Notes: a model not told the origin generated them from the letters alone. A DNA stretch of 64,000 bases from an uncultured Myxococcales bacterium (GCA_964460115.1 CAYWPR010000029.1:4131-68130), one strand, 5' to 3'. Shown: positions 1,512-22,782, counted from the stretch's first letter. Program-made: numbers and translations.

Positions 1512-1545
1512 CGGTCCTTCACACCTCGACGCACCCTCTGCTACA

Positions 1546-1567
1546 GCCAGCCGGTGGTCCGGCTGGC
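1546..1567 (+). terminator. GC-rich hairpin (gccagccgg-tggt-ccggctggc) 35 nt after the NYN gene stop. No U-tract.
   Basis: Perfect 9-bp stem with 4-nt loop. Confidence 0.35.
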
Positions 1568-1718
1568 CAAAACGCGGCTCATTGCGATATGATGTGGACG
1601 AGTATCGGCAGTGGTAGCCGCTATGCTCCTATTCAATCGCGTCCTTAGCGCCAAAGGACGCTGAATTGCGCATACACACATCCTCTAGATGCTATCTCAG
1701 CGATGAGTGAGGACAGTC

Positions 1719-2132
1719 ATGATGGACCATTGGGGGCATTTTCAAATCAAGCAGGAATTGTTTCTTGGTGATGAGATTTGCATTCTGCGGGCAACCGCTG
1801 CGGATCATTCGCCAGTCGTGCTTAAAATGTCTCGGCAAGATCCCTGCTCGGAGGCGCTGGCGGGCAGGCTGCATCACGAATTGGCTGTCCTAAACAGCTT
1901 GGCCGACGTTCCCGGCGTCATTAAGACCCGGGGCCTCGAGCGCATCGGCGGGCAGCTTGCCCTTGTCTTAGAAGACACCCAGAGCCGATCTCTGCGCGAA
2001 GTGCTTTTGAGCCGCGGGGGGCTGCCGCTTGCCGACGCCTTGCACATCACGCGCAGCGCCGCCGCCATTCTGGAAGCAGTTCATACGGCCGGACTCATTC
2101 ACAAAGACATCAAGCCGCATAAGTCTAATTAG
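1719..2132 (+). pseudogene. N-terminal fragment (kinase N-lobe through the HKDIKP catalytic loop) of a PknK-like Ser/Thr protein kinase, terminated by a stop inside the inserted DNA
   Basis: VVLKM (VAIK Lys), HHELAVL (alpha-C Glu) and HKDIKP (HRD loop) are present. The ORF then reads HKSN-stop at 2130-2132. The matching DFG/APE half resumes at 7521. GAGGA RBS lies 5 nt before ATG 1719. The track's GTG start is at 1707. Confidence 0.75.
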
Positions 2133-2155
2133 CCGCATTTAGCGTCAGATAACAG

Positions 2156-2233
2156 GAATTTGGAAATGGCGTCTCCCAAATTCCTCACGGATACTCGATT
2201 GCGAATTTGCGGAGCAGAGCGAGCCCGGGCTCG
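2156..2233 (-). terminator. Two hairpins downstream of the SDR gene on the minus strand: ggaatttgg/ccaaattcc (2156-2187) and the perfect 16-bp palindrome gcgagcccgggctcgc (2218-2233)
   Basis: Reverse-complement pairing seen directly. Located 12-90 nt 3' of the dprE2-like stop. Confidence 0.35.
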
Positions 2234-2244
2234 CGCATTGACGC

Positions 2245-2982
2245 TTAAAAATTGATCTGCCGCATGACAAAGCGCGGCAGCCGGCGAATCACCATCATCA
2301 CCGGTCCCCACATGCGCGGCGTGTACAGCACCGGCTGGTTGCGATCGATTGCCGCGACGATGTCGCGCGCCACCTGCTCTGGCTCGCCAGCGAAAGGCGG
2401 CGGCTTTAACCCCTGCGTCATGCCGGTTTTGACAAAGCCGGGCTTCACGCAGATGACGCGCAGCCCCTGCGCGTAGAACTTGTGATCGAGCCCCTCAAGA
2501 TAGGCACTGAGGCCAGCTTTGCTGGCGCCGTAGCTTATCACCGGCTTGCGCCCGCGCTCGCCGGCCACGGAACTGACCACGCACAGGGTGCCGCCGCCGC
2601 GTGTAAGTAGCAGCTTGCGAGCATGTTCGCAGAAGACCACGGTGTTGGCAAAGTTCACGCTAAGCACGCGGCGTAAAAGCTCGACGTCGGCTTCCATCGC
2701 TGCTTGCGTAGCGAAAAGCCCGGCGGTGACGATGATTGCATCGACATCGCCGAGTGCCTTTTGCGCAGCGCTAAGCGCGGCGCAAAAGCCCTCTGGCGCT
2801 TCCAGGTCGCAGTGAGCGCTTTTCACCGGCTGTTTGGCACCGCGCATTTCAAGGTCGGCAGCGCTGCGTGAAAGTTCCAGGGCATCGCGGCCAAGCAGAA
2901 ACAGCTCATCGCCGCGCGCGGCGAGCGACCGGGCGACGGCACGGCCAATACCCCTGGTGGCGCCAAGGAGGATGGCTTTCAT
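2245..2982 (-). CDS. dprE2: Short-chain dehydrogenase/reductase, DprE2-like (decaprenylphosphoryl-2-keto-ribose reductase family)
   Basis: GATRGIGRAV Rossmann motif. YGASKAGLSAYLEGL catalytic YxxxK region and C-terminal MWGPVMMVIRRLPRFVMRQ closely parallel mycobacterial DprE2. ATGA start/stop overlap with the upstream FAD oxidase. Confidence 0.6.
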   Translation of the reverse strand: MKAILLGATRGIGRAVARSLAARGDELFLLGRDALELSRSAADLEMRGAKQPVKSAHCDLEAPEGFCAALSAAQKALGDVDAIIVTAGLFATQAAMEADVELLRRVLSVNFANTVVFCEHARKLLLTRGGGTLCVVSSVAGERGRKPVISYGASKAGLSAYLEGLDHKFYAQGLRVICVKPGFVKTGMTQGLKPPPFAGEPEQVARDIVAAIDRNQPVLYTPRMWGPVMMVIRRLPRFVMRQINF

Positions 2983-4358
2983 GGGCGGTCTCCAAACAAG
3001 CGCTCGCTTTGCGCGCTACGAATCTGGTTGTGCGGATCCCACTTGCGTTTTACGTCCAGAAACCGCGCCAGGCGAGGTTCCATGGCGATGAAGTGTTCAC
3101 GGCGCGTAAAGCCGTCCTTGGCCAGGTAAAAGCGGCCCCCGCAGGCCAGAACGCGTTCGTTTAGCGCGTCGATGACCTGCTGCACGTTGTCGCGAATCGG
3201 AATGTCGAGCGCTAGCGAGACCCCGGGTCGAGGAAATGACAGCATTCCTTCTCCTTCTGCACCGCAGTCTTTGATGACGGTCAGAAACGAGGATGCGCCA
3301 TGCTGCGACAGAACTTGCAACATAGCGCGAATTCCGTCCGCGCCCGCGGTGTCGGGAATCACACTTTGATGCTGCGTGACTCCGCGTTTTCCATAGGCCC
3401 GGTTCCAGTGATGCACCCAATCGAGCGGATAAAAGAACGTATCGGCATCGACCACACTTGCGCGGTGCTGCGCCAAGTGTTGGCGATAGACCAAGGTATT
3501 GAATAAGCCGATGGTGGCGCGATTGAGCACCCCGGAAGGCAGCGCGAACGGCATGGTGAGCCGCAACTTGGGCCTCGGAAAGTGCGTCGGCGCCTCGTGC
3601 GCTTCCGCCCAGCGGCCGCAAAATAGGATGCCGCGCCCAAGCTCCTTGCCGCGCGCCATGGTGTCAATCCAGCCGACGGTAAAGGGCCAGCGTTGGCTTG
3701 CTTCTTTGAACTCCGACAGAAACGTGGCGAGATCCGGAATGCGAAAAGTCTCTTGATAGATATACGGCGAAGGCACGCGCACAAGCTGCAGCTCGACCTC
3801 TAGGATATGGCCAGTGAGGCCCATGCCGCCGAGGGTTGCTAGAAACAGCTCAGGCTCGTGTTGGCGTGAGCACTCGATGATGCGTCCGTCGGCGACCCGC
3901 AGCCGCAGCGCGCGCACGTGCCGGCCGATGGTGCCATCGACGTGGTGATTCTTGCCGTGCACGTCCGAGGCGACCATGCCGCCAAGCGTCACGAACTTGG
4001 TGCCCGGCGTCACCGGCGTAAAGAAGCCACGCGGCAGAAACAGCCGATATAGGTCGTTTAAACTGAAGCCCGCCTCGGCGCGCACGATGCCGCTCTGCGC
4101 GTCGAATGACAACACGCGATCGGCGAGCGTAGTCCCGACCACATCGGTCACTGCCGCGGGCGGCAGCGAGGCGTCGCCGTACGAGCGTCCAAGCCCGCGT
4201 GACAGCGTCGCTTGCCGCGTGATGCCCTCGAGATCCTCGGAGCGCACCTCGCGTCCAGGGACAAAAGTACGTCCCCAGCCGCTTAATGATGATTTGCCAA
4301 CCACGACGGGCTTCTTAGCATAAATTCTACACTTTGTGGCGCAGCCGAGAAATGACAT
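2979..4358 (-). CDS. dprE1: FAD-dependent oxidoreductase, DprE1-like (decaprenylphosphoryl-beta-D-ribose 2'-oxidase family)
   Basis: SGWGRT, GLGRSYGD, DVHGKNHH, WNRAYG and FYLAKDGF motifs colinear with DprE1. A possible extended -10 (tgTAGAAT) lies just inside the annotated 5' end, so the true start may be the in-frame GTG a few codons downstream. Confidence 0.65.
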   Translation of the reverse strand: MSFLGCATKCRIYAKKPVVVGKSSLSGWGRTFVPGREVRSEDLEGITRQATLSRGLGRSYGDASLPPAAVTDVVGTTLADRVLSFDAQSGIVRAEAGFSLNDLYRLFLPRGFFTPVTPGTKFVTLGGMVASDVHGKNHHVDGTIGRHVRALRLRVADGRIIECSRQHEPELFLATLGGMGLTGHILEVELQLVRVPSPYIYQETFRIPDLATFLSEFKEASQRWPFTVGWIDTMARGKELGRGILFCGRWAEAHEAPTHFPRPKLRLTMPFALPSGVLNRATIGLFNTLVYRQHLAQHRASVVDADTFFYPLDWVHHWNRAYGKRGVTQHQSVIPDTAGADGIRAMLQVLSQHGASSFLTVIKDCGAEGEGMLSFPRPGVSLALDIPIRDNVQQVIDALNERVLACGGRFYLAKDGFTRREHFIAMEPRLARFLDVKRKWDPHNQIRSAQSERLFGDRP

Positions 4359-4548
4359 CGTGAGGCTGAGCTGCGATGGCGTATGTCGAAGCTCTCAGGG
4401 TTTCGCGCCGCTTTCGCCTCGAACAAGACTTCTAGCCGCAGAATTTTGCTTGCGTCGAAAAGCGGCGCCGACTGCTCAGCCCGCCGTCGAGAAAGGCGCG
4501 GACAGCGAAGCAGAGCAGTCGTGGCGCTTCCTTGTTGCGGCGTGCGGC

Positions 4549-5151
4549 TTACAATTTGCTGGCGTTTTCTGCCAGATAGCTGGCGACGCCGGATGCGGAC
4601 GCAGTCATGCCACTGTCTCCCTTACGCCATCCGGCGGGACAGACTTCGCCATTTACTTCATGAAACTGCAGCGCATCGACGAGGCGCAAAAGCTCGTCCA
4701 TATTTCGCCCTAGCGGCAAATCATTGACGATTTGGGATCGGACGATGCCTTCGCGATCAATCAGAAAAGTCCCGCGCAGCGCGACACCGTCGTTATGCTC
4801 GACTCCATAGGCGCGACAGATTTCGTGCTTCACATCAGCGGCGAGCGTGAAACGGACTTTGCCGATGCCGCCGCGCTCGACCGGCGTTTCACGCCAGGCG
4901 TGGTGTGTAAATTGTGAATCAATCGAGATGCCAATCACCTCGACATTGCGCTTTTGCAACGCCTCGACGCGGTTATCGAGCGCGATAAGTTCGGAGGGAC
5001 AGACAAATGTGAAGTCCAGCGGATAAAAGACAAGTAGACCATACTTGCCGCTAAGGACTTTGGAGAGATGAAAATCCTGCACCATCGCGCCATCTCCAAG
5101 GACGGCCGCGCAGGAGAAATCAGGAGCTTTTTTGCCAACCAAGACCGACAT
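4549..5151 (-). CDS. Typical 2-Cys peroxiredoxin (AhpC/Prx1 type), copy 1
   Basis: FTFVCPSE peroxidatic Cys and EVCPAGW resolving Cys. 200 aa. Confidence 0.85.
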   Translation of the reverse strand: MSVLVGKKAPDFSCAAVLGDGAMVQDFHLSKVLSGKYGLLVFYPLDFTFVCPSELIALDNRVEALQKRNVEVIGISIDSQFTHHAWRETPVERGGIGKVRFTLAADVKHEICRAYGVEHNDGVALRGTFLIDREGIVRSQIVNDLPLGRNMDELLRLVDALQFHEVNGEVCPAGWRKGDSGMTASASGVASYLAENASKL

Positions 5152-5178
5152 GTTTTCGTACCTTTCTTTCGCTTTTTT

Positions 5179-5829
5179 CTATGCCGCTCTGAAACCCGGC
5201 AGCATGAACTCGCCTGCAAAATCGCGCTTCTTGTAACCCGGCTGAAAGTCGCGGGCCAGCTCATTTCGCGTCTCTGGTGTTAGCTCGACGCATTGCAGGG
5301 TGTCAAAGTAGTCGATGCCAAGCTGCGCCGTCTTTTGCGGATCGGCAAGTGCAGAGATCGCTTCGCGATCCAATCGAAAGCCGATGTACTGCACTGCACA
5401 GGTCGGATCGTCGTTGGGAAAAAGCGGCTGCGCTTCAATTGTCTGCATTCCAAGCTGCAGAAAGATAATTCGCGAAGTTCCCGCAAAAAGTTGTTGCGCC
5501 AGCTTTTGTCCGGCGCGGCACGGGCCTCCATGCAGCATTAGCGTTGCGGTTAACTCTCCGCTGCGGGGGATAAGTCGATCATATTCGGCAATTTCCTCGG
5601 CAATGCGCTGCGGGCGCAGGGGGCGTTCCATCCAGGCAATTTCTTGAATCTGCGCCAGCACCGTCTGACGCGACTCAAATAGCAACGAGACGTTCGGTCC
5701 TACTTCTACGCGCCGGCGGCGTTTCAAATCGATAAGCTGGCGACGATAATCAGCACGCAAGCGCTCGTAGACTTCGGTGGGCAGCAGATCGATGGGCTTT
5801 ATCGGGGCCGTGGCTCTTTGGTGGCTCAT
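5179..5829 (-). CDS. DUF3501-family protein, copy 1. Promoter-proximal gene of the bicistron with prx.
   Basis: 216-aa ORF. Size and sequence pattern fit the uncharacterised DUF3501 family. 27-nt gap to prx. Confidence 0.5.
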   Translation of the reverse strand: MSHQRATAPIKPIDLLPTEVYERLRADYRRQLIDLKRRRRVEVGPNVSLLFESRQTVLAQIQEIAWMERPLRPQRIAEEIAEYDRLIPRSGELTATLMLHGGPCRAGQKLAQQLFAGTSRIIFLQLGMQTIEAQPLFPNDDPTCAVQYIGFRLDREAISALADPQKTAQLGIDYFDTLQCVELTPETRNELARDFQPGYKKRDFAGEFMLPGFRAA

Positions 5830-5865
5830 GGCATCTGTCTTATTTGAAATTGAAAATCCTTTTCA

Positions 5866-5893
5866 TTTATATGCATCCGTCGAGCTCTGTCAA
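5866..5893 (-). promoter_or_regulatory. Near-consensus sigma70 promoter for DUF3501-prx. Reads TTGACA-N16/17-TATAAAT on the minus strand.
   Basis: rc of 5888-5893 is ttgaca and rc of 5865-5872 is atataaat. About 30 nt upstream of ATG 5829. Confidence 0.55.
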
Positions 5894-6088
5894 GACGCAA
5901 AACTTTGTCCCAAAGTTGTCCGTAGCGCTGCCAAGTGCGCTTTTTTTCGCAGGAAAATCGAGCGCGAATTCTCAGCCGCAGAATTTTGCTTGCGTCGAAA
6001 AGCGGCGCCGACTGCTCAGCCCGCCGTCGAGAAAGGCGCGGACAGCGAAGCAGAGCAGTCGTGGCGCTTCCTTGTTGCGGCGTGCGGC

Positions 6089-6691
6089 TTACAATTTGCT
6101 GGCGTTTTCTGCCAGATAGCTGGCGACGCCGGATGCGGACGCAGTCATGCCACTGTCTCCCTTACGCCATCCGGCGGGACAGACTTCGCCATTTACTTCA
6201 TGAAACTGCAGCGCATCGACGAGGCGCAAAAGCTCGTCCATATTTCGCCCTAGCGGCAAATCATTGACGATTTGGGATCGGACGATGCCTTCGCGATCAA
6301 TCAGAAAAGTCCCGCGCAGCGCGACACCGTCGTTATGCTCGACTCCATAGGCGCGACAGATTTCGTGCTTCACATCAGCGGCGAGCGTGAAACGGACTTT
6401 GCCGATGCCGCCGCGCTCGACCGGCGTTTCACGCCAGGCGTGGTGTGTAAATTGTGAATCAATCGAGATGCCAATCACCTCGACATTGCGCTTTTGCAAC
6501 GCCTCGACGCGGTTATCGAGCGCGATAAGTTCGGAGGGACAGACAAATGTGAAGTCCAGCGGATAAAAGACAAGTAGACCATACTTGCCGCTAAGGACTT
6601 TGGAGAGATGAAAATCCTGCACCATCGCGCCATCTCCAAGGACGGCCGCGCAGGAGAAATCAGGAGCTTTTTTGCCAACCAAGACCGACAT
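6089..6691 (-). CDS. Typical 2-Cys peroxiredoxin, copy 2 (identical)
   Basis: Identical translation to 4549..5151. Confidence 0.85.
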   Translation of the reverse strand: MSVLVGKKAPDFSCAAVLGDGAMVQDFHLSKVLSGKYGLLVFYPLDFTFVCPSELIALDNRVEALQKRNVEVIGISIDSQFTHHAWRETPVERGGIGKVRFTLAADVKHEICRAYGVEHNDGVALRGTFLIDREGIVRSQIVNDLPLGRNMDELLRLVDALQFHEVNGEVCPAGWRKGDSGMTASASGVASYLAENASKL

Positions 6692-6718
6692 GTTTTCGTA
6701 CCTTTCTTTCGCTTTTTT

Positions 6719-7369
6719 CTATGCCGCTCTGAAACCCGGCAGCATGAACTCGCCTGCAAAATCGCGCTTCTTGTAACCCGGCTGAAAGTCGCGGGCCAGC
6801 TCATTTCGCGTCTCTGGTGTTAGCTCGACGCATTGCAGGGTGTCAAAGTAGTCGATGCCAAGCTGCGCCGTCTTTTGCGGATCGGCAAGTGCAGAGATCG
6901 CTTCGCGATCCAATCGAAAGCCGATGTACTGCACTGCACAGGTCGGATCGTCGTTGGGAAAAAGCGGCTGCGCTTCAATTGTCTGCATTCCAAGCTGCAG
7001 AAAGATAATTCGCGAAGTTCCCGCAAAAAGTTGTTGCGCCAGCTTTTGTCCGGCGCGGCACGGGCCTCCATGCAGCATTAGCGTTGCGGTTAACTCTCCG
7101 CTGCGGGGGATAAGTCGATCATATTCGGCAATTTCCTCGGCAATGCGCTGCGGGCGCAGGGGGCGTTCCATCCAGGCAATTTCTTGAATCTGCGCCAGCA
7201 CCGTCTGACGCGACTCAAATAGCAACGAGACGTTCGGTCCTACTTCTACGCGCCGGCGGCGTTTCAAATCGATAAGCTGGCGACGATAATCAGCACGCAA
7301 GCGCTCGTAGACTTCGGTGGGCAGCAGATCGATGGGCTTTATCGGGGCCGTGGCTCTTTGGTGGCTCAT
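6719..7369 (-). CDS. DUF3501-family protein, copy 2 (identical)
   Basis: Identical translation to 5179..5829. Confidence 0.5.
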   Translation of the reverse strand: MSHQRATAPIKPIDLLPTEVYERLRADYRRQLIDLKRRRRVEVGPNVSLLFESRQTVLAQIQEIAWMERPLRPQRIAEEIAEYDRLIPRSGELTATLMLHGGPCRAGQKLAQQLFAGTSRIIFLQLGMQTIEAQPLFPNDDPTCAVQYIGFRLDREAISALADPQKTAQLGIDYFDTLQCVELTPETRNELARDFQPGYKKRDFAGEFMLPGFRAA

Positions 7370-7383
7370 GGCATCTGTCTTAT

Positions 7384-10300
7384 TTGAAATTGAAAATCCT
7401 TTTCATTTATATGCATCCGTCGAGCTCTGTCAAGACGCAAAACTTTGTCCCAAAGTTGTCCGTAGCGCTGCCAAGTGCGCTTTTTTTCGCAGGAAAATCG
7501 AGCGCGAATTCTCAGCCGCAAAACATCCTGTTTGAGGAGCAGCAAAAAAAGGTATGGCTGCTTGATTTCGGCTTGGCCTCGCGCTTGGCTTTTGAATCGA
7601 CGGTGGCGCTTATCCCCGAGGCGCTGGAGGGCACGCTGGCCTATATTTCGCCCGAGCAAACCGGCCGCACTTCGCGCACGCTGGATGCGCGAACGGATCT
7701 TTATTCGCTGGGCGTAACCCTGTTCGAGATGATTAGCGGCCGCCATCCTTTTCTGGAAACCGATCCACTGGCTTTGGTGCATGCTCATTTGGCCAAGCTG
7801 CCTCCCGCTTTGGACGCGCTTATGCCCGAGGTGCCTTCGTCCGTCGCGCGTATCGTCGAGCGACTGCTGGCCAAAGACCCGGACAAGCGGTATCAGACGG
7901 CGCGCGGCTTGATGCACGATCTAGACAAGTGCCTGGAACAATGGCAGCGGGAAGGAAAAATTTCGCCATTTCCAGTGGCCCAGCGCGATTTTTCGCCCAA
8001 GCTGCGTTTGCCCGAGCAGCTTATCGGACGTGAAGCGGAAGTCGAAGTGCTGCGTTTCGCCTTTGAACGCGCCGCCAACGGGGCCGTAGAGCTTTTGCTG
8101 GTCGGCGGTCCTTCCGGCATTGGCAAAACCGCCTTGATTCGCTCTGTGTACCGCGAAATGGCTCGAAGGGGTCGCGGACTTTTGCTAAGCGGCAAACACG
8201 ATCAACTGGCCCGTTCCGTTCCTTATGCCGCGCTGGTGCAAGCCTTTGGCGGACTGATGCAGAATATCGCCGCCAGTCCTCGGGCCACGGTAGATGCTTG
8301 GAAGGAGTGTATTGAGACAGCGATGGGGGGCAACGCCCGCGTCATTGCCGACCTGATTCCTGAACTGAACTGGGTCATGGGCAATCTGCCGCCTGTGCCC
8401 GAACTTCCCAGCGATCAAGCCTACAATCGCTTAAAGCTGGCCTGGATTTACTTTGTTCAAGCTGTGCTCAGCAAAAGCGAGCCGTTGGTGCTTTTTCTGG
8501 ATGATTTGCAATGGATCGATCCGGCTTCTTTGGAACTGCTCAAGGTGCTTCTGACCGATGCGGAACGCCGCAGTATTTTGCTGATTGCCGTCTATCGCGA
8601 TAACGAAATCGACGCCACCCATCCTCTGTGGAATCTGGCGGATGCAGTGGTGAAAAACGGCGATCGAGTGTCCAAGCAGACACTGCGTCCGCTTGAAATT
8701 TTTGAAATTGCGCAGTGGTTGTCGGTTGCTTTGTGCGCGCTGCCCGAACATGTCGCGCCGCTGGCCACAGTGCTCTGGAATAAGACGCGCGGAAATCCCT
8801 TTTTCCTGGGGCAATTGCTGCTGGAAATGTATCGCAGCAAAAGCCTTTTGCGAAATCTCGACAGCGGAGTTTGGATCTGGAATTCGGCGCAAATCGAAAC
8901 TCTGGCGGTGACGGATAACGTTGTCGATTTGATGCAATCCAAGCTGCGCGACCTGCCGGAAGCAACTTGCAGCTTGCTCGGTTTGGCGGCTTGCGCCGGG
9001 CACGTATTTACGCTGGATGAGCTGGCTGTGCTGTCGGCATCGGCCCCGCAGGCAGTGGCCCAGGCCCTTTGGCCAGCGCTGCGTGAAGGAATTCTTATCA
9101 CCGCAGATCTACAGGCTCAATATGTGCAAGCCCTGGTGGAAGAGAATCAGCCGCTTGGCCAATTGCAAAGCCGCTACCAGTTCTTGCACGATCGCGTGCA
9201 GCAGGCCTGTCATCAGCTTATTGCACCTAGCGAGCAGAAGCGCGCCCATCTGGACATTGGACGCCGCTTTCTAGGTCGATATAAAGCGCAAGGCGGAACA
9301 GCGCAGGAACTGCTAGAACTCGTGCGGCACCTGAACTTGGGCGTGGACTGTATGGACTCGCCGCAAGAAGTTCGAGACCTGGTTCAGTTGAACCTGGACG
9401 CCGCGCGCAAAGCCAAGGCCGCAGGTGTGTATCGCTTGATGGCAGAGCTGGCCCTACAGGGATCCAATTTGCTTGGCCCTGGGCAGTGGGAAAACGATTT
9501 CGAATTGGCTGCGCAACTGGCCATCGAGCGCGTCGAAGCGACCTATATGTTGCGGCAAGCCGATGAAGTCGAAGCGCTGGTGCTGTCCCTGCTTGATCGG
9601 AATCTACCGCTTATCACCATCTGGACTCTGCAAGAGATTCGAATGCGTGCGCACTTGATCAGCGGAAAGATGCAAAAAGCTTCGGCACTTGGAAAAACCA
9701 TCTTTGGCCAAGCAGGCAGAAAGATTCCCGATACTGTCGAAGTGCTCATGGCGGAATCAGTCTCGATGCTGAAAGCAATCGATGCGTGGCGCGAACGACT
9801 GGGTGAAGAGGGCCTTTCGGCCATTCCACTGGATTCTGATCCCCTGCGCACGACGCAGGATGCCGCGACTTTTACCTGGATATATTGCTTGATGGCCAGT
9901 GGCGAGTTTCCGCTTATCACCTGGGGCTTGCCGAATGCCATTTCTAGCGTGATCGAAAAGGGCACGCAGACGCGACATTCCGCGCTGCTATTGGCGACGG
10001 CGACAAACTTATGGGGGCCGATCTTTGATCAGCCCCGCGAGGCTGCCTGGTTGGCAATCGCCGCGACCTGGCTGCGGAAAAACCTGAATTCACCTGCCGC
10101 CGATTATGTTGACGTTATCGTCGGTAGTGTTCTTTTGTATCGGCATCATGCACGTGAATCGCTGCCGATTTTCGAACGAGTGATTGCCGATGGATTGGAA
10201 CAGGGAAATTTTTCGGCGTTAAGTGGCGGATGCTTTTGTGCCATCCGCGACAGTTTGATTTGGCCCGGAGCGCCGCTGTCTTTGACGCGTCGCGAGATCG

Positions 10301-12507
10301 AAAAAAAGATGCTACTGGTTCGTCGTGCGGGCGATTCCATTGGCCAAAACACCATCGAGCTTTCCGCTTCCTATGTTGAATGCTTGCTAAATAGGGCGCC
10401 GCTAAGTTGCCGCCCGGACGGTGGAATTCTTCCTTTTGGTTCCAAGGAACTACTCGCGCGCGGCGACGGTCTAAACGGCAGCTTGGCCGATGTTTTGGAA
10501 CTGCCCCTATTTCTAATGATTTGCCAACCTGCGCAGGCCTATCAGCACGCTCAGTGGGCGATGCAACATCAATTTATGTTGCGCACGGTAGCCCTGGGAA
10601 GCGACATCCTGCTTTGCTTGGCGCTGGCGGCTGCGGCCCTGATGGATACGACCACTGCGCCGGAGGAACGAGCCCAGCGGCAACAGGAACTGGAACAAAG
10701 CATTGTGCGCTTTCGCTATCTGGCAGAGGGCTGCGCCGAGAACTTTTTGCACAAGCTGTACCTGCTGGAAGCCGAGCAGGCGCGGCTGGCCGGCAAGGAC
10801 GACGTGGCAATGGCCAAGTACGATGCTGCCATCGATTATGCGCACAAGCAGGATTTTCGGCAGATTGTCGCCCTGGCCGCGCAGCTTTGCGGACAATACC
10901 ATCAGAAGGCCGGCCGACGTCGTATGGCTGCGCTGTACCTTCGCGAATCTCGCAGCGCTTATGAACGTTGGGAAGCGCATGCCATCGTCCGTTTTATGGA
11001 CGAGCACTATGCCGACTACTTGCAAGAACCCGCCGAGGCGGCGATTTCGGCAATTCCCGCATTGGCTCCGACTCGAAACTCCACATCAAGACCCGGCAAT
11101 GCTGCGACCGCGACGATTCGCTCGAGCCGAACGACGCATTCAGGAGGGGCGCTGCTAGATGCCGAAACAGTGATTCGCGCAACCCAGGCCTTGGCCAGCG
11201 AATTGCATCCGGAACGCATCGTCGCGCAACTGATGCATCTAGTCGTCGAAAACGCCGGCGCGCAGCGTGGGGCCCTTTTTCTGACGCAAGGGGATGCGCT
11301 TTTTATGGCCGCTAGGCTTATTACGTCTACGGCGCGCATCGAGACGAATTTGCACATTCCTTTGTTCGAGTGCACAGACGTTCCTCAGATCATCATTGAT
11401 GCGGTCGCGCGCACTCGGCAGCCATTGTTTTTGTCGGATGCACCCGCTGATTCGCGGTTTGGACAAGAACCGCTCTTGCGAGCTTCCAATTCCCATTCCG
11501 TACTGGTCATTCCGCTTTTGCATCAGGCGCGGCTCGTCGGCGCTTTGTACCTAGAGCATGAGGAACGCAATGCATTTTCGGCACAAAGCATGAATTTGCT
11601 AGGAGTCCTGTCCGCACAGACCGCCATTGCGCTGGAGAACGCCAACCTTTATGACGCGTTGCGAAAAAGCAACGTCGAACTTGAATCGCAAGTCGCCGCG
11701 CGCACCACCGAGCTTCAGGACACCCTTTTGGACCTATGGAGCGAGATGGATCTGGCGACCAAGATCCAAACCGTACTTTTGCCCAAGGACGGCGTTTACG
11801 GCGGCCATGAATTTGCCGCGACGATGCGTCCGGCGGCCAAGGTCGGTGGCGATTACTACGATGTCTTTGAACATGCCGGCGCGACGTGGGTTCTTATCGG
11901 CGATGTATCCGGCCACGGCGTCAGCGCCGGCCTGATTATGATGATGGTGCAGTCCGCAATACGGACGCTGGTCGGCGCAAAGGAAAATGTGATTCCCAGT
12001 CCCGCCGAGGTGCTGACTCGCGTCAACGCGGGAATCGCCAGCAATCTGCAAAAAATCGGCAAAGGACAATACATGACCCTTGTGGCCTTGTGTGTCGAGG
12101 GAAGCAAAGTCCGATTTGCCGGATTGCATCTTGATCTGCTTGTCTATCGTGCGGCTTTGCAAACCGTAGAGCACATCAAGACCGAGGGAATCTATATCGG
12201 CTGGGTCGAGGATGCCAGCGGGCTTTACTTCGACACCACCCTGACCCTAGATGCGGACGATATACTGCTTTTGTACACCGATGGTTTGACCGAGGCGCGC
12301 AAGGGAAGCGTGCTTTTAGGCCTCGAGGATGTGCAGCGAATATTGCTAGAAAAAGGTCAAGCGCAAGCCACCCCGCGGCAAATCATTGATGCCACGTTTG
12401 GTCTTCTGGAAGGAACGCAATGCAGCGACGACATCTCTGTCGTGACGCTAAAAGTAGGCGAATCACCAAGTAACGTGGCCGCAGCTATCTCGCAAAACCA
12501 GGTCTAA
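7384..12507 (+). CDS. Disrupted giant signalling protein. C-terminal kinase lobe (DFG, GTLAYISPEQ), STAND/AAA ATPase (GGPSGIGKT; LVLFLDDLQW), TPR/helical region, GAF domain and C-terminal PP2C/SpoIIE phosphatase. The first 45 codons (7384-7518) derive from the inserted DNA.
   Basis: Host-derived coding starts at 7521 (QNILFEEQQKKVWLLDFG). PknK-like kinase-AAA-TPR architecture. PP2C features: GDVSGHGVSAG, and YTDGLTEA, which contains the DG pair. Confidence 0.7.
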   Translation: MKLKILFIYMHPSSSVKTQNFVPKLSVALPSALFFAGKSSANSQPQNILFEEQQKKVWLLDFGLASRLAFESTVALIPEALEGTLAYISPEQTGRTSRTLDARTDLYSLGVTLFEMISGRHPFLETDPLALVHAHLAKLPPALDALMPEVPSSVARIVERLLAKDPDKRYQTARGLMHDLDKCLEQWQREGKISPFPVAQRDFSPKLRLPEQLIGREAEVEVLRFAFERAANGAVELLLVGGPSGIGKTALIRSVYREMARRGRGLLLSGKHDQLARSVPYAALVQAFGGLMQNIAASPRATVDAWKECIETAMGGNARVIADLIPELNWVMGNLPPVPELPSDQAYNRLKLAWIYFVQAVLSKSEPLVLFLDDLQWIDPASLELLKVLLTDAERRSILLIAVYRDNEIDATHPLWNLADAVVKNGDRVSKQTLRPLEIFEIAQWLSVALCALPEHVAPLATVLWNKTRGNPFFLGQLLLEMYRSKSLLRNLDSGVWIWNSAQIETLAVTDNVVDLMQSKLRDLPEATCSLLGLAACAGHVFTLDELAVLSASAPQAVAQALWPALREGILITADLQAQYVQALVEENQPLGQLQSRYQFLHDRVQQACHQLIAPSEQKRAHLDIGRRFLGRYKAQGGTAQELLELVRHLNLGVDCMDSPQEVRDLVQLNLDAARKAKAAGVYRLMAELALQGSNLLGPGQWENDFELAAQLAIERVEATYMLRQADEVEALVLSLLDRNLPLITIWTLQEIRMRAHLISGKMQKASALGKTIFGQAGRKIPDTVEVLMAESVSMLKAIDAWRERLGEEGLSAIPLDSDPLRTTQDAATFTWIYCLMASGEFPLITWGLPNAISSVIEKGTQTRHSALLLATATNLWGPIFDQPREAAWLAIAATWLRKNLNSPAADYVDVIVGSVLLYRHHARESLPIFERVIADGLEQGNFSALSGGCFCAIRDSLIWPGAPLSLTRREIEKKMLLVRRAGDSIGQNTIELSASYVECLLNRAPLSCRPDGGILPFGSKELLARGDGLNGSLADVLELPLFLMICQPAQAYQHAQWAMQHQFMLRTVALGSDILLCLALAAAALMDTTTAPEERAQRQQELEQSIVRFRYLAEGCAENFLHKLYLLEAEQARLAGKDDVAMAKYDAAIDYAHKQDFRQIVALAAQLCGQYHQKAGRRRMAALYLRESRSAYERWEAHAIVRFMDEHYADYLQEPAEAAISAIPALAPTRNSTSRPGNAATATIRSSRTTHSGGALLDAETVIRATQALASELHPERIVAQLMHLVVENAGAQRGALFLTQGDALFMAARLITSTARIETNLHIPLFECTDVPQIIIDAVARTRQPLFLSDAPADSRFGQEPLLRASNSHSVLVIPLLHQARLVGALYLEHEERNAFSAQSMNLLGVLSAQTAIALENANLYDALRKSNVELESQVAARTTELQDTLLDLWSEMDLATKIQTVLLPKDGVYGGHEFAATMRPAAKVGGDYYDVFEHAGATWVLIGDVSGHGVSAGLIMMMVQSAIRTLVGAKENVIPSPAEVLTRVNAGIASNLQKIGKGQYMTLVALCVEGSKVRFAGLHLDLLVYRAALQTVEHIKTEGIYIGWVEDASGLYFDTTLTLDADDILLLYTDGLTEARKGSVLLGLEDVQRILLEKGQAQATPRQIIDATFGLLEGTQCSDDISVVTLKVGESPSNVAAAISQNQV
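7406..7433 (-). promoter_or_regulatory. Second copy of the TTGACA-N17-TATAAAT promoter
   Basis: Same sequence at a +1540 offset. Confidence 0.55.
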
Positions 12508-12510
12508 CGC

Positions 12511-15500
12511 TTATTCGCGTGGCGTTACATCGCGCAGCTCGATGTAACGCTCCATATGCTCGACGGCGCTTTGCGGTGCGGCCTCGATATACTCGCTGCG
12601 GGCTAAGTAGTAAAGCGCGCTTGGATGCTGGCGCAGCCAGCTTGCGTATTGCGGATCATCCGCGACCACTTCCAAATGATCGCGCGCATCGTCAAAAAGC
12701 TCTGTCTTATACAGCAGATAACCTAGCACCAGACGAACGTTTGGCCCCATGCTTTCGACCCAGCGCATCGGCCAATCACGCAGTGCTCGCAAGCCTTGCG
12801 TAAATTGCTGCGTATCGATGGCGGCAAGCGCGGCGGCATAATCGCGTTCAATGCGCTGCCGCTCAGCCGGGGTGGTATTGGCTGCAATCTGCGGATTGCC
12901 TAAGCCGGCGCTAAAATGGCTGTCGTCGCCGTCCCAGTTGCGCACCAGGGGCTCTTCTTGCTCGGCAACATTGCGCCGATCAAAAAGGCTTAAGAGCCGG
13001 GCTAGGCGTACTCCTTCGGCCGTGCTGCCGCCGTCCACGCCGCCGCCTACGCCAAGCGCTCGAAAAAGCAGGCGGCCTGCGGCATCGCGCCTGCCGTGAC
13101 GCAGCAATGCTTTGCCCAGGCGGCTATAAACCGCTTCGCGCTGCATGGCACTTTGTTCGCCCGTCGGCACAAAGTTGCTTAGATAGCGCTCAAAGCGGCC
13201 ATAGGGCCACTCATTGCCGTAGACTCGAGGCGTCGTCAGATCATTGCGCAGGTAGCCCAAAAGGTCGCGCGGGGCGCGAAATTCGATGCGTGCATTGTCG
13301 TCCGTGTTAATCGCTGCCCCCGCGGTATATGCGGGAATCTCATCGGGCAGCAGCAATAGGTCGGCCAGAATATCGTCCGGTTCACTGACTCCCGCGCGCT
13401 GCAGCTCTTTGGCCAGGGTCGGTACCGCAAAATTTTTGGCCAGTCGCGCAAAATCCAAAGGCAGCGGATGTTCGCTGGCAATCAGAATGACATCGCTAGA
13501 GCGGTGCTCCGCGGCAAACACATAGGTGTACGGAAAGACGCTGGCAAAGCTGGCCAAAAGAGTTTTGACATTGGGCTGCGAAAGCTCGTAAAGCTGCGCC
13601 CACTGACAAAATACGCCGCCCGCGGCCAAGCGGCTTTTGGCCAGGCGCCAGTAATCGACCGTGAACAGGCTGCTGACGCCGGCAATCCAGGGATTGGAGG
13701 GCTCGCTGATGATGACGTCGTAGCGGCTTTGCGATTGCGTCATGAAGTTGCGGCCGTCTCCGGCAATCACCGTCACGCGCGGGTCATGGCTTGGCAGATG
13801 GCTGACTTCGGCAAAATAGCGGTCGCCGGCTTCCACGACAGCCGGCTCTAGCTCGATGACATCGGCGTGGGCGATGGGAAACTGCGTAACCGCTCCGGCC
13901 GTTACCCCCGATCCGTAGCCGACCACGGCGACGCTTGGTGGATGCGAAAGGGCGGTCGGATGTAACAAAAGCGGCATCAGCCCGACCATGATTTGCGTGC
14001 TCATGTCGTCGCCGTTTGAGGCATCGACCTTGCCGTTGTTCTTTAAGGCCAGTTGTTTGCCCCAGCGCTCTACCGAAACCGTGGTCGAGACGCCGTCTTT
14101 GTAATAAAGCAGTTCTGGGGCGCGCTGGTCGTTAAAGTAGATGACTTGCCGCGCCAGCGATATGCGAAACAGTCCCGACGAAAAATGCGTCAGATTCCAC
14201 CGCGGCAGGGCCAGGGCAAAAAGCCCCGCCAAAAGCATCACAAAAGCGCCCGCAAAAATGCCACGGCGCCGAGCGCGCGCAAACGATCCCAGGGCATCAG
14301 CAAATAGCAGCAGTGCCGAAAGTCCGGCGGTAACTAGCGCACACAAAAGCAGTCCGCGCTGTAGCCCAAGCATCGGCAGGACGACAAAGCCAGCGGCAAA
14401 GCTGCCGCTAATCGCTCCGATGGTGTTCCAGGCATAGGCAATGCCGACTTGCTCGCCGACGCCAGCCGTATCGGTCGGTGATTCCGTCAGGGCCGCGGTT
14501 TTTTTGCGCCAGGTGTAGACGTGCATGGTCAGGGGCATGACGCCGCCCATGGCCATGGTTGCCGGAACGATGGCCAGGGCCGCAAGCACGAACTGCGTCG
14601 CCAAAAGTTCATCCACAGAGAAACTGGCGCCGCGCAAAATTCCTAAAAAGATCTTCGGCAGCCGCGGCAGCATCAAAAAGGACCACAGCGCCGTAAACAG
14701 CGTAAGCGCATGTACCAGCGCCAGCCCGTACACCGGACGCGCTACCAGTTTGCCGCCGCGCGCCAGCAGCTTGGTCGTCACCGCCGCGCCGCCAAAAAGT
14801 CCAATCAAAAACGCCAACAGAATCAGCGTGAACGAATAAATGGAGGACCCTAAGACGATGGCCAAGGCGCGCGTCCACAGCACCTGGTACACCATGGCCG
14901 TGCCTCCGGAAATGGCATAACACATCACCGCAAGCCGTCGCTGCAAGTCCGTGGGAAACGCAAACTGCGTGGAATCTGGGCTGCGGCCGGCCGGTAGCGC
15001 CGATTCGGGGGCGGCAAGGCTCGGCCCTTCCGGCTCTTTGGTGGGCCCTTCCGCAAGCTCGAGGCTTTGTCGTCGCGTGCGCAGCGCTTCGGCAACCAGA
15101 ATGGCCAAGGCCAAAGACAAGTTTACAAAAGCGCCGACATAGTTTGTGTAGGTGACACCAAGCTGCGGCAGTAAGACAAATCCGCTTACAAAGGTTCCCA
15201 GAACTGCTCCGCCGGTATTGACCGCGAATAGCGCCCCGACTTCTACGGCTTTGCTGCCAAGATGCTGTTTGCGCTGCGCGGACAAATGCTGCGACAAAAG
15301 CGGCAAGGTCGCTCCCATCAAAGTCGTTGGCAATAGCAGCAAAAGCGCAGTCGCCAAAAAACGCAAAAGCGACAGCAGCGCATAGTGATTGCCGACCGTG
15401 CGCCACAGCAAGGCATTGAGCGGCGGATAAAATTTCAGCCAGATCGGAATGCTAAGCGCGAAAATGCCGACCCCCGCTTCCATAAGTGCGTAGGCGCGCA

Positions 15501-22496: not shown

Positions 22497-22782
22497 AAGG
22501 GCCTTGTAAGTCTGACTCGCATCTCGATCACAAGGCACGCTAAGTGGGTGTATTTTTTGTGAAACAATTTTTGTAATTTTCCTTAAAAAATATCCTGTAG
22601 AACTATCCCAGCACTTGGAATCGCAGCCTGCTTTCTGGGCGCTTTACCAAGGCGATCGCAGCGCAGCCACCAAACCAGTTGTCGCACTGCCGAGCCTCTA
22701 TCCATGCCATCCCAAGCGGACGGCTGATACGGAAAGCTATGTGTTGCCGTACCAGCAAAACCGTTCAAGAAAGGACTCCATC

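What the first reader, a model, noticed from the sequence alone, without database searches (positions are those of the whole stretch)
4441..7520. Perfect 2 x 1540-bp tandem duplication of a DUF3501-peroxiredoxin operon, each copy with a consensus sigma70 promoter
Copies 4441-5980 and 5981-7520 are base-for-base identical where compared. All ORF translations are identical at a +1540 offset. Each copy carries TTGACA-N16/17-TATAAAT about 30 nt upstream of the DUF3501 start. The 7-mer agccgca sits before copy 1 and at the end of both copies. This is the signature of microhomology-mediated unequal crossover and a very recent amplification. Amplifying a strongly promoted 2-Cys peroxiredoxin is a classic adaptive route to peroxide tolerance.
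Basis: seen in the sequence. Interest (0 to 1): 0.7.

Follow-up and report, generated by a model that had tools for sequence, protein, structure and literature searches.

The report
Duplicated peroxiredoxin operon splitting a kinase gene
A 1.5-kb two-gene antioxidant operon (DUF3501 plus a 2-Cys peroxiredoxin) is present as two base-identical head-to-tail copies joined at a 7-base microhomology; this is an ordinary kind of recent duplication, absent from a sister assembly of the same organism, but it sits at the end of a four-gene block that cuts a large protein-kinase gene in two.

Summary
Window 4434-5980 equals 5974-7520 with 0 mismatches: the unit is 1540 bp, and AGCCGCA lies before copy 1, at the copy1/copy2 joint and at the end of copy 2. 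Each unit, on the minus strand, carries TTGACA-N16-TATAAA, then DUF3501 (216 aa), then a typical 2-Cys peroxiredoxin (200 aa).

1. The duplication lies at the right end of a 5401-bp block (2120-7520) that also carries a DprE1-like FAD oxidase and a DprE2-like SDR. The block splits a Pkinase-AAA_16-GAF-SpoIIE gene inside its catalytic loop. Deleting the block restores a 1799-aa ORF reading HKDIKPQNILF. The same 7-mer flanks the block.

2. Independent Logan assemblies of two SRA runs reproduce both kinase/block junctions at 100% identity. One contig is exactly the window minus one unit, so a single-copy allele exists. No fetched contig carries the copy1/copy2 joint.

A ~95%-identical strain keeps the Prx/oxidase junction but has a deletion-riddled kinase remnant.

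Best reading: a very recent, population-polymorphic, microhomology-mediated tandem duplication that doubles operon dosage. Selection by peroxide is unproven. An assembler over-calling the copy number is the main rival. Interest is low to moderate.

The parts
4441..5980 (-). Tandem unit, copy 1 (1540 bp): spacer, Prx, DUF3501, promoter region, terminal AGCCGCA
   Evidence: identical to 5981-7520 with 0 mismatches.
5981..7520 (-). Tandem unit, copy 2 (1540 bp)
   Evidence: Copy 2 abuts the kinase C-terminal fragment at 7520/7521.
4434..4440 (+). AGCCGCA, left parental boundary (FAD-oxidase side | unit), called J2
   Evidence: Conserved in the ~95%-identical strain L011 and present in L002.
5974..5980 (+). 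AGCCGCA at the novel copy1/copy2 joint (J3)
   Evidence: A 35-nt probe across it is absent from every fetched Logan contig.
7514..7520 (+). AGCCGCA at unit | kinase-C (J4); also the right flank of the whole inserted block
   Evidence: The junction is present in L001 and L002.
2113..2119 (+). AGCCGCA inside the kinase codons AAG CCG CA(A); left flank of the inserted block (J1)
   Evidence: The junction is present in L003.
2131..2137 (+). Second AGCCGCA, 11 nt (TAAGTCTAATT) after J1, at the start of the SDR/oxidase segment
   Evidence: Unexplained.
4549..5151 (-). Typical 2-Cys peroxiredoxin, copy 1 (200 aa)
   Evidence: Pfam AhpC-TSA 1.1e-34 plus 1-cysPrx_C. NCBIfam peroxiredoxin C scores 297.8, cutoff 301. 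PDB 1zof 1.7e-67. 79.5% identical to the Sorangium Prx.
6089..6691 (-). 2-Cys peroxiredoxin, copy 2
5179..5829 (-). DUF3501 protein, copy 1 (216 aa)
6719..7369 (-). DUF3501 protein, copy 2
5866..5893 (-). Promoter-like TTGACA-N16-TATAAA, copy 1
   Evidence: 2 matches in the window, 0.00 expected.
7406..7433 (-). Promoter-like TTGACA-N16-TATAAA, copy 2
2120..7520 (.). 5401-bp block interrupting the kinase gene (3861 bp in single-copy form): SDR, FAD oxidase, and 2 x (Prx, DUF3501), all on the minus strand
   Evidence: removing it gives one 1799-aa ORF; the rejoined protein aligns gap-free with homologues.
1719..2132 (+). Kinase N-lobe fragment (137 aa). The native part ends at 2119, followed by 4 foreign codons and TAG.
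   Evidence: Called as a Pkinase fragment on L003.
7519..12507 (+). Kinase C-lobe + AAA_16 + GAF + SpoIIE(PP2C) fragment (1662 codons, open)
   Evidence: the Pkinase match covers profile positions 127-260 only, followed by AAA_16, GAF and SpoIIE.
2979..4358 (-). DprE1-like FAD-linked oxidase (459 aa)
   Evidence: Pfam FAD_binding_4. NCBIfam DprE1 scores 375.9, below the cutoff of 500.
2245..2982 (-). DprE2-like short-chain dehydrogenase (245 aa)
   Evidence: Pfam adh_short. NCBIfam PRK07102 scores 226.6 and DprE2 149.7, both below their cutoffs.
2154..2185 (.). Perfect 10-bp stem hairpin downstream of the SDR; a likely terminator at the left end of the block
   Evidence: (I21).
4441..4548 (-). 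108-nt spacer after the Prx stop codon, with a 12-bp imperfect stem, closed by the inverted 7-mer TGCGGCT at 4543-4549
   Evidence: z = -1.07, not significant.

Best explanation
The feature is a real, very recent tandem duplication of a self-contained two-gene operon (own promoter, DUF3501, 2-Cys peroxiredoxin) that is polymorphic within the population. It formed by RecA-independent misalignment or template switching between two pre-existing copies of AGCCGCA, 1540 bp apart, that flanked the single-copy operon. The result is two identical, independently promoted copies. Operon dosage is doubled, and the 1.5 kb of perfect homology can expand or collapse by ordinary homologous recombination.

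The operon lies at the right end of a four-gene, promoter-to-terminator block (SDR, DprE1-like oxidase, Prx, DUF3501). The block sits inside the catalytic loop of a PknK-like Ser/Thr kinase gene between direct copies of the same 7-mer, and it separates a 137-aa N-lobe stub from a 1662-codon C-terminal ORF.

Shown: the sequence identity, the junction anatomy, the split kinase, the existence of the single-copy allele, and the age of the Prx/oxidase adjacency. Inferred: the formation mechanism, the recency, the dosage effect, and the order of events. Whether the duplication was selected, for example by peroxide stress, is open.
For: The duplication is exact and has a shared 7-mer, and there is no other long repeat in the window.

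The parental single-copy form with AGCCGCA at both boundaries exists: L002 from SRR8797212 is base-for-base the window minus one unit.

The flanks of the single-copy and duplicated forms are 100% identical over L001, L002 and L003, about 13.5 kb in total. The two forms therefore differ by this event alone.

A 7-bp junction falls within the 4-15 bp range found at E. coli amplification junctions (PMC1428787). Tandem amplifications are known to be unstable and heterogeneous in copy number within populations (PMC11721125).

A 7-bp overlap is too short for a de Bruijn-graph or overlap assembler to create the joint without reads that contain it (inference).

Kinase split: removing 2120-7520 gives a 1799-aa ORF with a full Pkinase domain, and it aligns gap-free with homologues across HKDIKPQNIL. 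Both kinase/block junctions are reproduced in the Logan contigs.

The operon looks native: the DUF3501-Prx pair is conserved in Sorangium at 54% and 79.5% identity, GC3 is within 1.5 sd of the window background, and the Prx | AGCCGCA | oxidase junction is conserved in a ~95%-identical strain.
Against: No reads are available, so copy number 2 is unverified. In both sister read sets the Logan contigs pass through the unit boundaries without breaking (L001 through J4; L002 through J4 and J2). That is not expected if the copy1/copy2 joint were present at full frequency. No fetched contig carries the joint.

The right breakpoint of the duplication coincides exactly with the end of the block inserted in the kinase. 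Under random choice among >=7-bp microhomology pairs this has a probability of about 3% (9 of 281 pairs, unit <=4 kb) to 20% (3 of 15 pairs, unit <=2 kb). The single-copy block holds 7 copies of the 7-mer on both strands, against about 1.35 expected when the shuffle mean is scaled to 3.87 kb. A purely random microhomology model leaves this unexplained.
Confidence: 0.55

Rival explanations
1. Assembly over-expansion. The chromosome carries one unit. The copy1/copy2 joint comes from a minority variant, an excised 1540-bp circle, or chimeric library molecules. The assembler that built the 68.9-kb contig traversed the resulting loop and wrote two copies.
For: L002 is exactly the single-copy form. 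L001 and L002 run unbroken through the unit boundaries, and no fetched contig carries the joint. Only SRR8797211 and SRR8797212 hold the exact DUF3501 protein apart from the NCBI contig, so the contig was probably built from these or sibling reads. Perfect identity between copies is also what a loop traversal produces.
Against: A 7-bp overlap cannot by itself cause a false join, so reads carrying the joint must exist somewhere. Simple end-to-end concatenation of overlapping contigs would give two adjacent 7-mers at the joint, not the single one observed. The Logan contigs are short (2-7 kb), which indicates low coverage, so a low-frequency or unlucky joint could have been dropped.
Confidence: 0.22
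2. Adaptive amplification. The duplication is real and rose in frequency because doubling a strongly promoted peroxiredoxin operon raises peroxide tolerance. It is the first step of a selected amplification.
For: The duplicated unit is close to the minimal segment that contains promoter, both genes and spacer. Only 15 microhomology pairs could give a unit of <=2 kb that includes the whole operon. DUF3501 is otherwise linked to peroxide-scavenging rubrerythrin operons (PMC5114695). Amplification of another peroxidase-type gene cluster, crp-osmC, has been reported in Acinetobacter (PMC13574567, listed).
Against: There are only two copies. The single-copy allele is the one seen in the sister assemblies. 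There are no expression, phenotype or environmental data. The search found no literature that makes Prx amplification a 'classic' route. Duplications arise at high rates without selection (PMC11721125).
Confidence: 0.15
3. Site-specific cassette recombination. AGCCGCA is the crossover core of an unidentified recombinase encoded elsewhere in the genome. The 11-nt remnant, the SDR-oxidase segment and the Prx-DUF3501 unit are cassettes inserted one after another at the 7-mer in the kinase gene. The second unit is a second insertion of a circular 1540-bp cassette.
For: The same 7-mer lies at all five structural boundaries (2113, 2131, 4434, 5974, 7514). An inverted copy closes the spacer after Prx (4543). 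The block holds 7 copies of the 7-mer against about 1.35 expected from the shuffle mean scaled to 3.87 kb. The duplication breakpoint coincides with the block end. The block runs neatly from promoter to terminator.
Against: There is no integrase, transposase or HUH nuclease in the 64 kb. No conserved arms flank the 7-mers and there are no terminal inverted repeats. The spacer fold is not better than shuffled sequence (z = -1.07). Elsewhere in the window the 7-mer is almost always inside genes and marks no boundaries. The Prx/oxidase junction is stable across about 5% divergence. The coincidence probability is only 0.03-0.2.
Confidence: 0.06

Closest known systems
Microhomology-mediated ('short-junction') tandem duplication/amplification in bacteria, e.g. 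E. coli lac amplification junctions (PMC1428787) and antibiotic-resistance amplifications (PMC11721125)
   Same: The repeat is direct and head-to-tail. There is a single novel joint with a few bases of identity that occur once at each parental boundary; 7 bp lies within the reported 4-15 bp range. There are no IS or rRNA repeats at the ends. A one-copy allele coexists, as expected for unstable duplications.
   Different: The unit (1.54 kb) is much smaller than the 7-30+ kb amplicons usually selected in the laboratory. There are only two copies. The selective agent is unknown. One breakpoint coincides with an older rearrangement junction that uses the same 7-mer.
Gene-interrupting 'intervening elements' excised during development (B. 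subtilis skin in sigK; cyanobacterial nifD, fdxN and hupL elements) - named from my own knowledge
   Same: A multi-kb block lies inside an ORF, flanked by short direct repeats. Precise recombination between the repeats would restore an intact gene. The host lineage (Polyangia-like, by best hits) is developmental.
   Different: Those elements encode their own site-specific recombinase, and none is present here. No intact (excised) allele was found in any collection. The cargo is ordinary metabolic and antioxidant genes.
Integron gene cassettes / attC sites
   Same: An array of segments is separated by one short 7-nt core. An inverted copy of the core lies about 100 nt away, downstream of the last gene of the unit.
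   Different: The core is AGCCGCA, not GTTRRRY. There is no intI. The unit carries its own promoter. The hairpin is not significant. The junction between two 'cassettes' is stable over about 5% sequence divergence.
Rubrerythrin-DUF3501-RFO oxidative-stress cluster (PMC5114695)
   Same: A DUF3501 gene is co-transcribed with a peroxide-reducing enzyme.
   Different: The partner here and in Sorangium is a 2-Cys peroxiredoxin rather than an aerobic-type rubrerythrin, and no Fe-S oxidoreductase (RFO) is adjacent.

Membership tests
Microhomology-mediated tandem duplication | Two or more head-to-tail direct copies of one segment | tested here: met
   2 x 1540 bp with 0 mismatches.
Microhomology-mediated tandem duplication | One novel joint whose short identity (a few bp) is present once at each parental boundary | tested here: met
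   AGCCGCA lies at 4434, 5974 and 7514. The parental single-copy allele L002 has it at both boundaries.
Microhomology-mediated tandem duplication | No long repeats (IS, rRNA, REP) at the breakpoints that would allow RecA-dependent unequal crossing-over | tested here: met
   no other direct repeat of >=40 nt in the window. The flanks share only imperfect similarity beyond the 7-mer.
Microhomology-mediated tandem duplication | Doubled read depth and junction-spanning reads in the source data | not testable with these tools
   No reads are available. Indirectly, the Logan contigs L001 and L002 run through the boundaries unbroken and lack the joint, which argues against a fixed duplication in those runs.
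Typical 2-Cys peroxiredoxin (AhpC/Prx1 type) | AhpC/TSA thioredoxin-fold domain with the peroxidatic Cys in the FTFVCPTE-type motif | tested here: met
   Pfam AhpC-TSA 1.1e-34. The sequence reads DFTFVCPSE.
Typical 2-Cys peroxiredoxin (AhpC/Prx1 type) | Resolving Cys in the C-terminal EVCPAxW motif | tested here: met
   GEVCPAGW near residue 170 (sequence). The best solved relatives are 2-Cys Prx/AhpC, led by 1zof at 1.7e-67.
Typical 2-Cys peroxiredoxin (AhpC/Prx1 type) | Score above the curated NCBIfam cutoff for 'peroxiredoxin C' | tested here: inconclusive
   297.8 bits against a cutoff of 301.
DUF3501 (PF12007) | Pfam score above the gathering threshold, and the family fold | tested here: met
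Rubrerythrin-DUF3501-RFO cluster | DUF3501 adjacent to an aerobic-type rubrerythrin (and usually an Fe-S oxidoreductase) | tested here: not met
   The neighbour is a peroxiredoxin, with no rubrerythrin or CCG-domain protein in the block. The definition comes from PMC5114695.
Integron cassette array | intI integrase and attC sites with RYYYAAC / GTTRRRY cores forming a structured hairpin | tested here: not met
   No tyrosine recombinase in the 64 kb. The core is AGCCGCA. The spacer fold has z = -1.07.
IS/transposon insertion | Transposase gene and terminal inverted repeats; flanking target-site duplication | tested here: not met
   A 7-bp flanking direct repeat is present. There is no transposase and there are no terminal inverted repeats; the ends read TAAGTCTAATT... 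and ...GCGAATTCTC.
Developmentally excised intervening element (skin / nifD-element type) | Interrupts an ORF, and recombination at the flanking repeats restores it | tested here: met
   In silico only.
Developmentally excised intervening element (skin / nifD-element type) | Element-encoded site-specific recombinase; excised or intact allele observed | tested here: not met
   The block encodes no recombinase. No intact-kinase allele was found in the GTDB representatives, the JGI metagenomes or the protein database.
PknK-like Ser/Thr kinase (Pkinase-AAA_16-...) | Complete Pkinase domain followed by AAA_16 | tested here: met
   Met only after rejoining: Pkinase 3.6e-34 over profile positions 18-260, plus AAA_16. 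As encoded in the window, the gene is split at profile position ~127.

The most novel reading that the evidence does not exclude
AGCCGCA is the crossover core of an unrecognised recombination system encoded elsewhere in the genome, and this system moves promoter-to-terminator gene modules. On this reading the block in the kinase gene is a recombinase-less intervening element that can excise precisely to restore the kinase, and the second Prx-DUF3501 unit is a re-inserted 1540-bp circle rather than a replication slip.
Probability: 0.05. Interest if true: 0.7.

Novelty: new member of a known kind. Interest (0 to 1): 0.3.

Why it matters
If the duplication is real, it is a natural snapshot from an uncultured Polyangia-like bacterium of the first step of gene amplification. 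Both the 'before' and 'after' alleles are in hand, and the unit is a complete, strongly promoted antioxidant operon. That makes it a usable case for studying how often such events occur and persist in the wild, but it does not change what is known about the mechanism.

The split kinase is the more unusual part. A 1,800-aa signalling protein is cut inside its catalytic loop by a block with no mobile-element genes. The C-terminal 1,662 codons are still open, while a sister strain shows the same region riddled with deletions. This may be a gene loss caught in progress, or a truncated AAA_16-GAF-PP2C protein kept under selection.

There is also a practical lesson. Public annotation of this contig lists two Prx genes, two DUF3501 genes and a chimeric '1698-aa' kinase product, and none of these should be taken at face value.

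Tried and rejected
1. attC-like or structured recombination site in the 108-nt spacer and at the joints. Single-strand DNA folds were no better than shuffles (z = -0.5 to -1.5). The inverted-repeat scan found only weak arms.

2. Empty-site or donor-site search. The GTDB representative genomes, queried with the rejoined kinase N-region, gave only 25-28% relatives. The JGI metagenomes, queried with a concatenated kinase+DUF3501 sequence, gave one 33% relative. The lineage is unsampled there.

3. Synteny in the best kinase homologues (53-55% identical; L006, L007). There is no shared neighbourhood.

4. The idea that the Sorangium kinase next to DUF3501-Prx is the orthologue, which would imply a local rearrangement. 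It is only 36% identical, so it is a paralogue.

5. L013 (activated-sludge DUF3501 locus). It has neither Prx nor kinase and is uninformative.

6. Foreign origin of the block by composition. Prx and DUF3501 are typical. The SDR and oxidase are only 2.5-3.4 sd higher in GC3, and codon-usage correlation is within the range of other genes.

7. A genome-wide role for the 7-mer. Outside the block it lies almost always inside coding sequence, at about the chance density.

8. Known RNAs or tRNA attachment sites. There is no Rfam match in 1400-8000 and no tRNA in the window.

9. DUF3501 function from structure. The only strong match is another uncharacterised DUF3501 structure; the rest are weak beta-sandwich matches.

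10. Provenance of the SRR8797211/12 and DRR236209/11 runs. No paper in the library names them.

11. Telling 'module inserted into the kinase' from 'swap of adjacent segments'. In the swap model the ancestral order is SDR, oxidase, Prx, DUF3501 lying divergent from an intact kinase; the 490-bp 5' part of the kinase is then excised between two 7-mers and re-inserted at AGCCGCT 1616. This was not resolvable without an outgroup.

Full report
OBSERVATION. The claim is correct. Window 4441-5980 and 5981-7520 are identical at all 1540 positions. The exact match at offset 1540 runs for 1547 nt (4434-5980 = 5974-7520), which means two units share the 7-mer AGCCGCA before copy 1, at the joint and at the end of copy 2. 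It is the only long repeat in the 64 kb.

The genes lie on the minus strand. Each unit carries DUF3501 (216 aa; Pfam PF12007, 2.2e-38) followed 27 nt later by an AhpC/TSA peroxiredoxin (200 aa; 1.1e-34). Each unit has TTGACA-N16-TATAAA ending 36 nt before the DUF3501 ATG. That 28-nt pattern occurs only at these two places in the window, with a chance expectation of 0.00. The generic promoter scanner did not list it because the last base of the -10 hexamer is A. The peroxiredoxin is a typical 2-Cys enzyme: it has DFTFVCPSE and GEVCPAGW in its sequence, its best solved relative is H. pylori AhpC 1zof at 1.7e-67, and NCBIfam 'peroxiredoxin C' scores 297.8 against a cutoff of 301.

The plus-strand ORF 1719-2132 is the N-lobe of a protein kinase and ends ...HKDIKP at an AGCCGCA (2113-2119). 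The huge plus-strand ORF that ends at 12507 resumes immediately after the AGCCGCA at 7514-7520 with QNILFEEQQKKVWLLDFGLA.

Deleting 2120-7520 gives one 1799-aa ORF. Its first 366 residues match the full Pkinase profile plus AAA_16. As encoded, the C-fragment matches Pkinase only from profile position 127, followed by AAA_16, GAF and SpoIIE/PP2C. The rejoined protein is covered 98-100% by homologues, the best being 55% and 53% identical Polyangium-like MAG proteins. It aligns without a gap across the break, and one homologue reads the identical HKDIKPQNIL.

The 5401-bp block between the two kinase halves carries four kinds of gene, all on the minus strand: a DprE2-like SDR (2245-2982), a DprE1-like FAD oxidase (2979-4358) and the two Prx-DUF3501 units. 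It runs from a promoter at its right end to a perfect 10-bp hairpin at its left end. The same 7-mer bounds everything: 2113 (kinase side), 2131 (11 nt later), 4434, 5974 and 7514.

INDEPENDENT ASSEMBLIES. Exact-protein look-ups found Logan contigs from two SRA runs.
- L003 (SRR8797212) equals window 1642-3799 and so reproduces the left kinase/block junction.
- L001 (SRR8797211) equals window 6578-14023 and reproduces the right junction.
- L002 (SRR8797212) is base-for-base window 3949-5980 joined to 7521-9470, which is the locus with ONE unit.

No fetched contig contains a 35-nt probe across the copy1/copy2 joint. The kinase interruption is therefore not an artefact of the window's assembly, whereas the duplication is not corroborated. 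In a k=31 graph, a joint present at full frequency should break contigs at the unit boundaries, and L001 and L002 run straight through them. I infer that the one-copy allele is the main form in those read sets. The window comes from a 68,904-bp NCBI contig. Only these two runs share its exact DUF3501 protein, so it was probably assembled from the same or sibling data.

A RELATED STRAIN. The 90% clusters of Prx and DUF3501 contain variants from DRR236211 (L011) and DRR236209 (L012). The two contigs are 99.9% identical to each other and about 95% identical to the window. They keep Prx, the spacer, the AGCCGCA and the start of the oxidase, so the Prx/oxidase adjacency predates about 5% sequence divergence.

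Upstream, however, the kinase C-region survives only as five collinear blocks: 12419-12160, 10258-10209, 9873-9573, 9086-8825 and 8435-8184. These are joined with 0-7 nt of microhomology and one 26-nt filler, and the last block is fused directly to the middle of DUF3501 (5461). Because two runs give the same joints, this is a real, deletion-riddled remnant.

The substitutions between these blocks and the window fall 11/2/23 by codon position (23 synonymous, 13 non-synonymous). That is a purifying-selection pattern. A simulation shows that a neutrally evolving kinase-C ORF would stay open with probability <=1.8% after >=2.1% substitutions per site. Either the kinase was split recently relative to the strain divergence, or the AAA_16-GAF-PP2C part is still useful without the N-lobe.

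ORIGIN OF THE BLOCK. No integrase, transposase or HUH nuclease is encoded anywhere in the window. The rest of the window is ordinary chromosome: purL/purF, PGI, PFK, FBPase, FtsQ, MoxR-DUF58 and an ECF sigma factor. There are no tRNA genes and no Rfam match in 1400-8000.

The DUF3501-Prx pair is conserved in Sorangium at 54% and 79.5% identity. This is the same lineage signal as the kinase. Its GC3 is typical of the window, while the SDR and oxidase are 2.5-3.4 sd higher. The block therefore looks native rather than imported.

Two histories fit. (A) The four-gene module was inserted into the kinase at AGCCGCA. (B) The module originally lay just upstream of an intact kinase and divergent from it, and the 490-bp 5' part of the kinase was exchanged with it through recombination among 7-mers; a 6/7 copy, AGCCGCT, lies at 1616-1622. 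I could not separate these histories. No outgroup exists in the GTDB representatives or the JGI metagenomes, and the nearest homologous loci are not syntenic.

IS THE RECURRENT 7-MER MEANINGFUL? By construction, a microhomology duplication shows its repeat three times and an insertion shows its flank twice. The real coincidence is that the right breakpoint of the duplication is exactly the block/kinase junction. I enumerated all >=7-bp direct-repeat pairs that could duplicate the whole operon. Of 281 pairs with a unit of <=4 kb, 9 touch that junction; of 15 pairs with a unit of <=2 kb, 3 do. The coincidence is thus mildly unlikely (0.03-0.2) rather than compelling.

The single-copy block does hold 7 copies of the 7-mer on both strands, against about 1.35 expected when the shuffle mean is scaled to 3.87 kb. 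An inverted copy also closes the spacer after Prx. Against a functional site, the spacer fold is not significant (z = -1.07), no conserved arms flank the sites, and elsewhere the 7-mer is almost always inside genes. I record this as unexplained and give a site-specific cassette mechanism about 5-6%.

MECHANISM AND MEANING. The anatomy matches the known class of RecA-independent, microhomology-mediated tandem duplications. E. coli amplification joints have 4-15 bp of identity (PMC1428787). Such arrays are unstable and vary in copy number within populations (PMC11721125), which fits the coexistence of one-copy and two-copy forms with otherwise identical flanks.

The expected consequence is two independently promoted copies, and hence roughly doubled DUF3501 and Prx expression. 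That is an inference. DUF3501 is of unknown function. The literature knows it as the partner of aerobic-type rubrerythrin, another peroxidase (PMC5114695). Its pairing with a peroxiredoxin here and in Sorangium suggests a general peroxidase-accessory role. My model (pLDDT 86.7) matched only an uncharacterised DUF3501 crystal structure.

Nothing here tests whether peroxide selected the duplication, and a literature search did not support calling Prx amplification a 'classic' route.

VERDICT. The feature is an ordinary kind of event: a new instance of a known class. Its copy number still needs read-level confirmation. My confidences are: real and recent 0.55, plus 0.15 for the selected variant; assembler over-expansion 0.22; site-specific cassette 0.06. 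The split kinase with 7-mer-bounded, recombinase-less cargo, and the eroded remnant in a sister strain, are the more interesting by-products. Interest is 0.3.

Noticed in passing
L011 1-1136 and L012 1-694 (window equivalents 12419-8184): A ~95%-identical strain (DRR236211, DRR236209) carries the kinase C-region only as five collinear blocks. They are joined by deletions of 335-1901 bp with 0-7 nt of microhomology and one 26-nt filler. The last block is fused to the middle of DUF3501, which also has a 1-nt indel at its end, while Prx is intact. The two runs give identical joints.
   Followed up: partly
window 7411-7518: The public gene call for the kinase C-fragment (1698 aa, ATG at 7411) is a chimera. 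Its first 36 codons are read antisense through the DUF3501 promoter region of copy 2, and the native kinase sequence starts only at 7519. The same spurious ORF start exists in copy 1 (5871).
   Followed up: yes
window 4549-5829; L008 8001-9244: DUF3501 is paired with a 2-Cys peroxiredoxin here and in Sorangium. The literature describes it as almost always co-localised with aerobic-type rubrerythrin and an Fe-S oxidoreductase (PMC5114695). This looks like a swap of peroxidase partner and may be a clue to what DUF3501 does.
   Followed up: partly
window 1616-1622: A 6/7 variant of the junction 7-mer (AGCCGCT) lies about 100 nt upstream of the kinase start codon. It would be the left joint if the 5' part of the kinase had been moved across the four-gene block (the 'adjacent swap' model).
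   Followed up: partly
window 2120-2137: Between the kinase break and the SDR segment lie 11 nt of unmatched filler (TAAGTCTAATT), which supplies in-frame and out-of-frame stop codons, followed by a second AGCCGCA. The origin of these 18 nt is unknown.
   Followed up: no
window 2245-4358: A DprE1-like FAD oxidase and a DprE2-like SDR overlap by 4 nt. Both score below the NCBIfam equivalog cutoffs, and their GC3 is 2.5-3.4 sd above the window background. They may be a sugar 2'-epimerase pair for a polyprenyl-phospho-sugar in a non-actinobacterial lineage.
   Followed up: no
window 23559-23621: A 15-nt tandem repeat (CAAAGTGGAGCCGCC, 4.2 copies, 83% matches) lies inside a 714-aa ORF (22615-24759) that has no Pfam match. 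This would be a pentapeptide repeat in an unknown protein.
   Followed up: no
window 25357-25372: Two copies of AGCCGCA, 9 nt apart start to start (AAGCCGCAAAAGCCGCA), lie inside a 579-aa ORF with no Pfam match (24933-26672). This is probably a short coding repeat unrelated to the junctions.
   Followed up: no
L008 8001-15983 (Sorangium, GCA_051369925.1): In Sorangium the DUF3501-Prx operon lies 1.7 kb from a large Pkinase-AAA_16-GAF-STAS gene. That gene is only 36% identical to the split kinase, so it is a paralogue. The proximity may be chance in a kinase-rich genome, or a loose functional linkage.
   Followed up: partly
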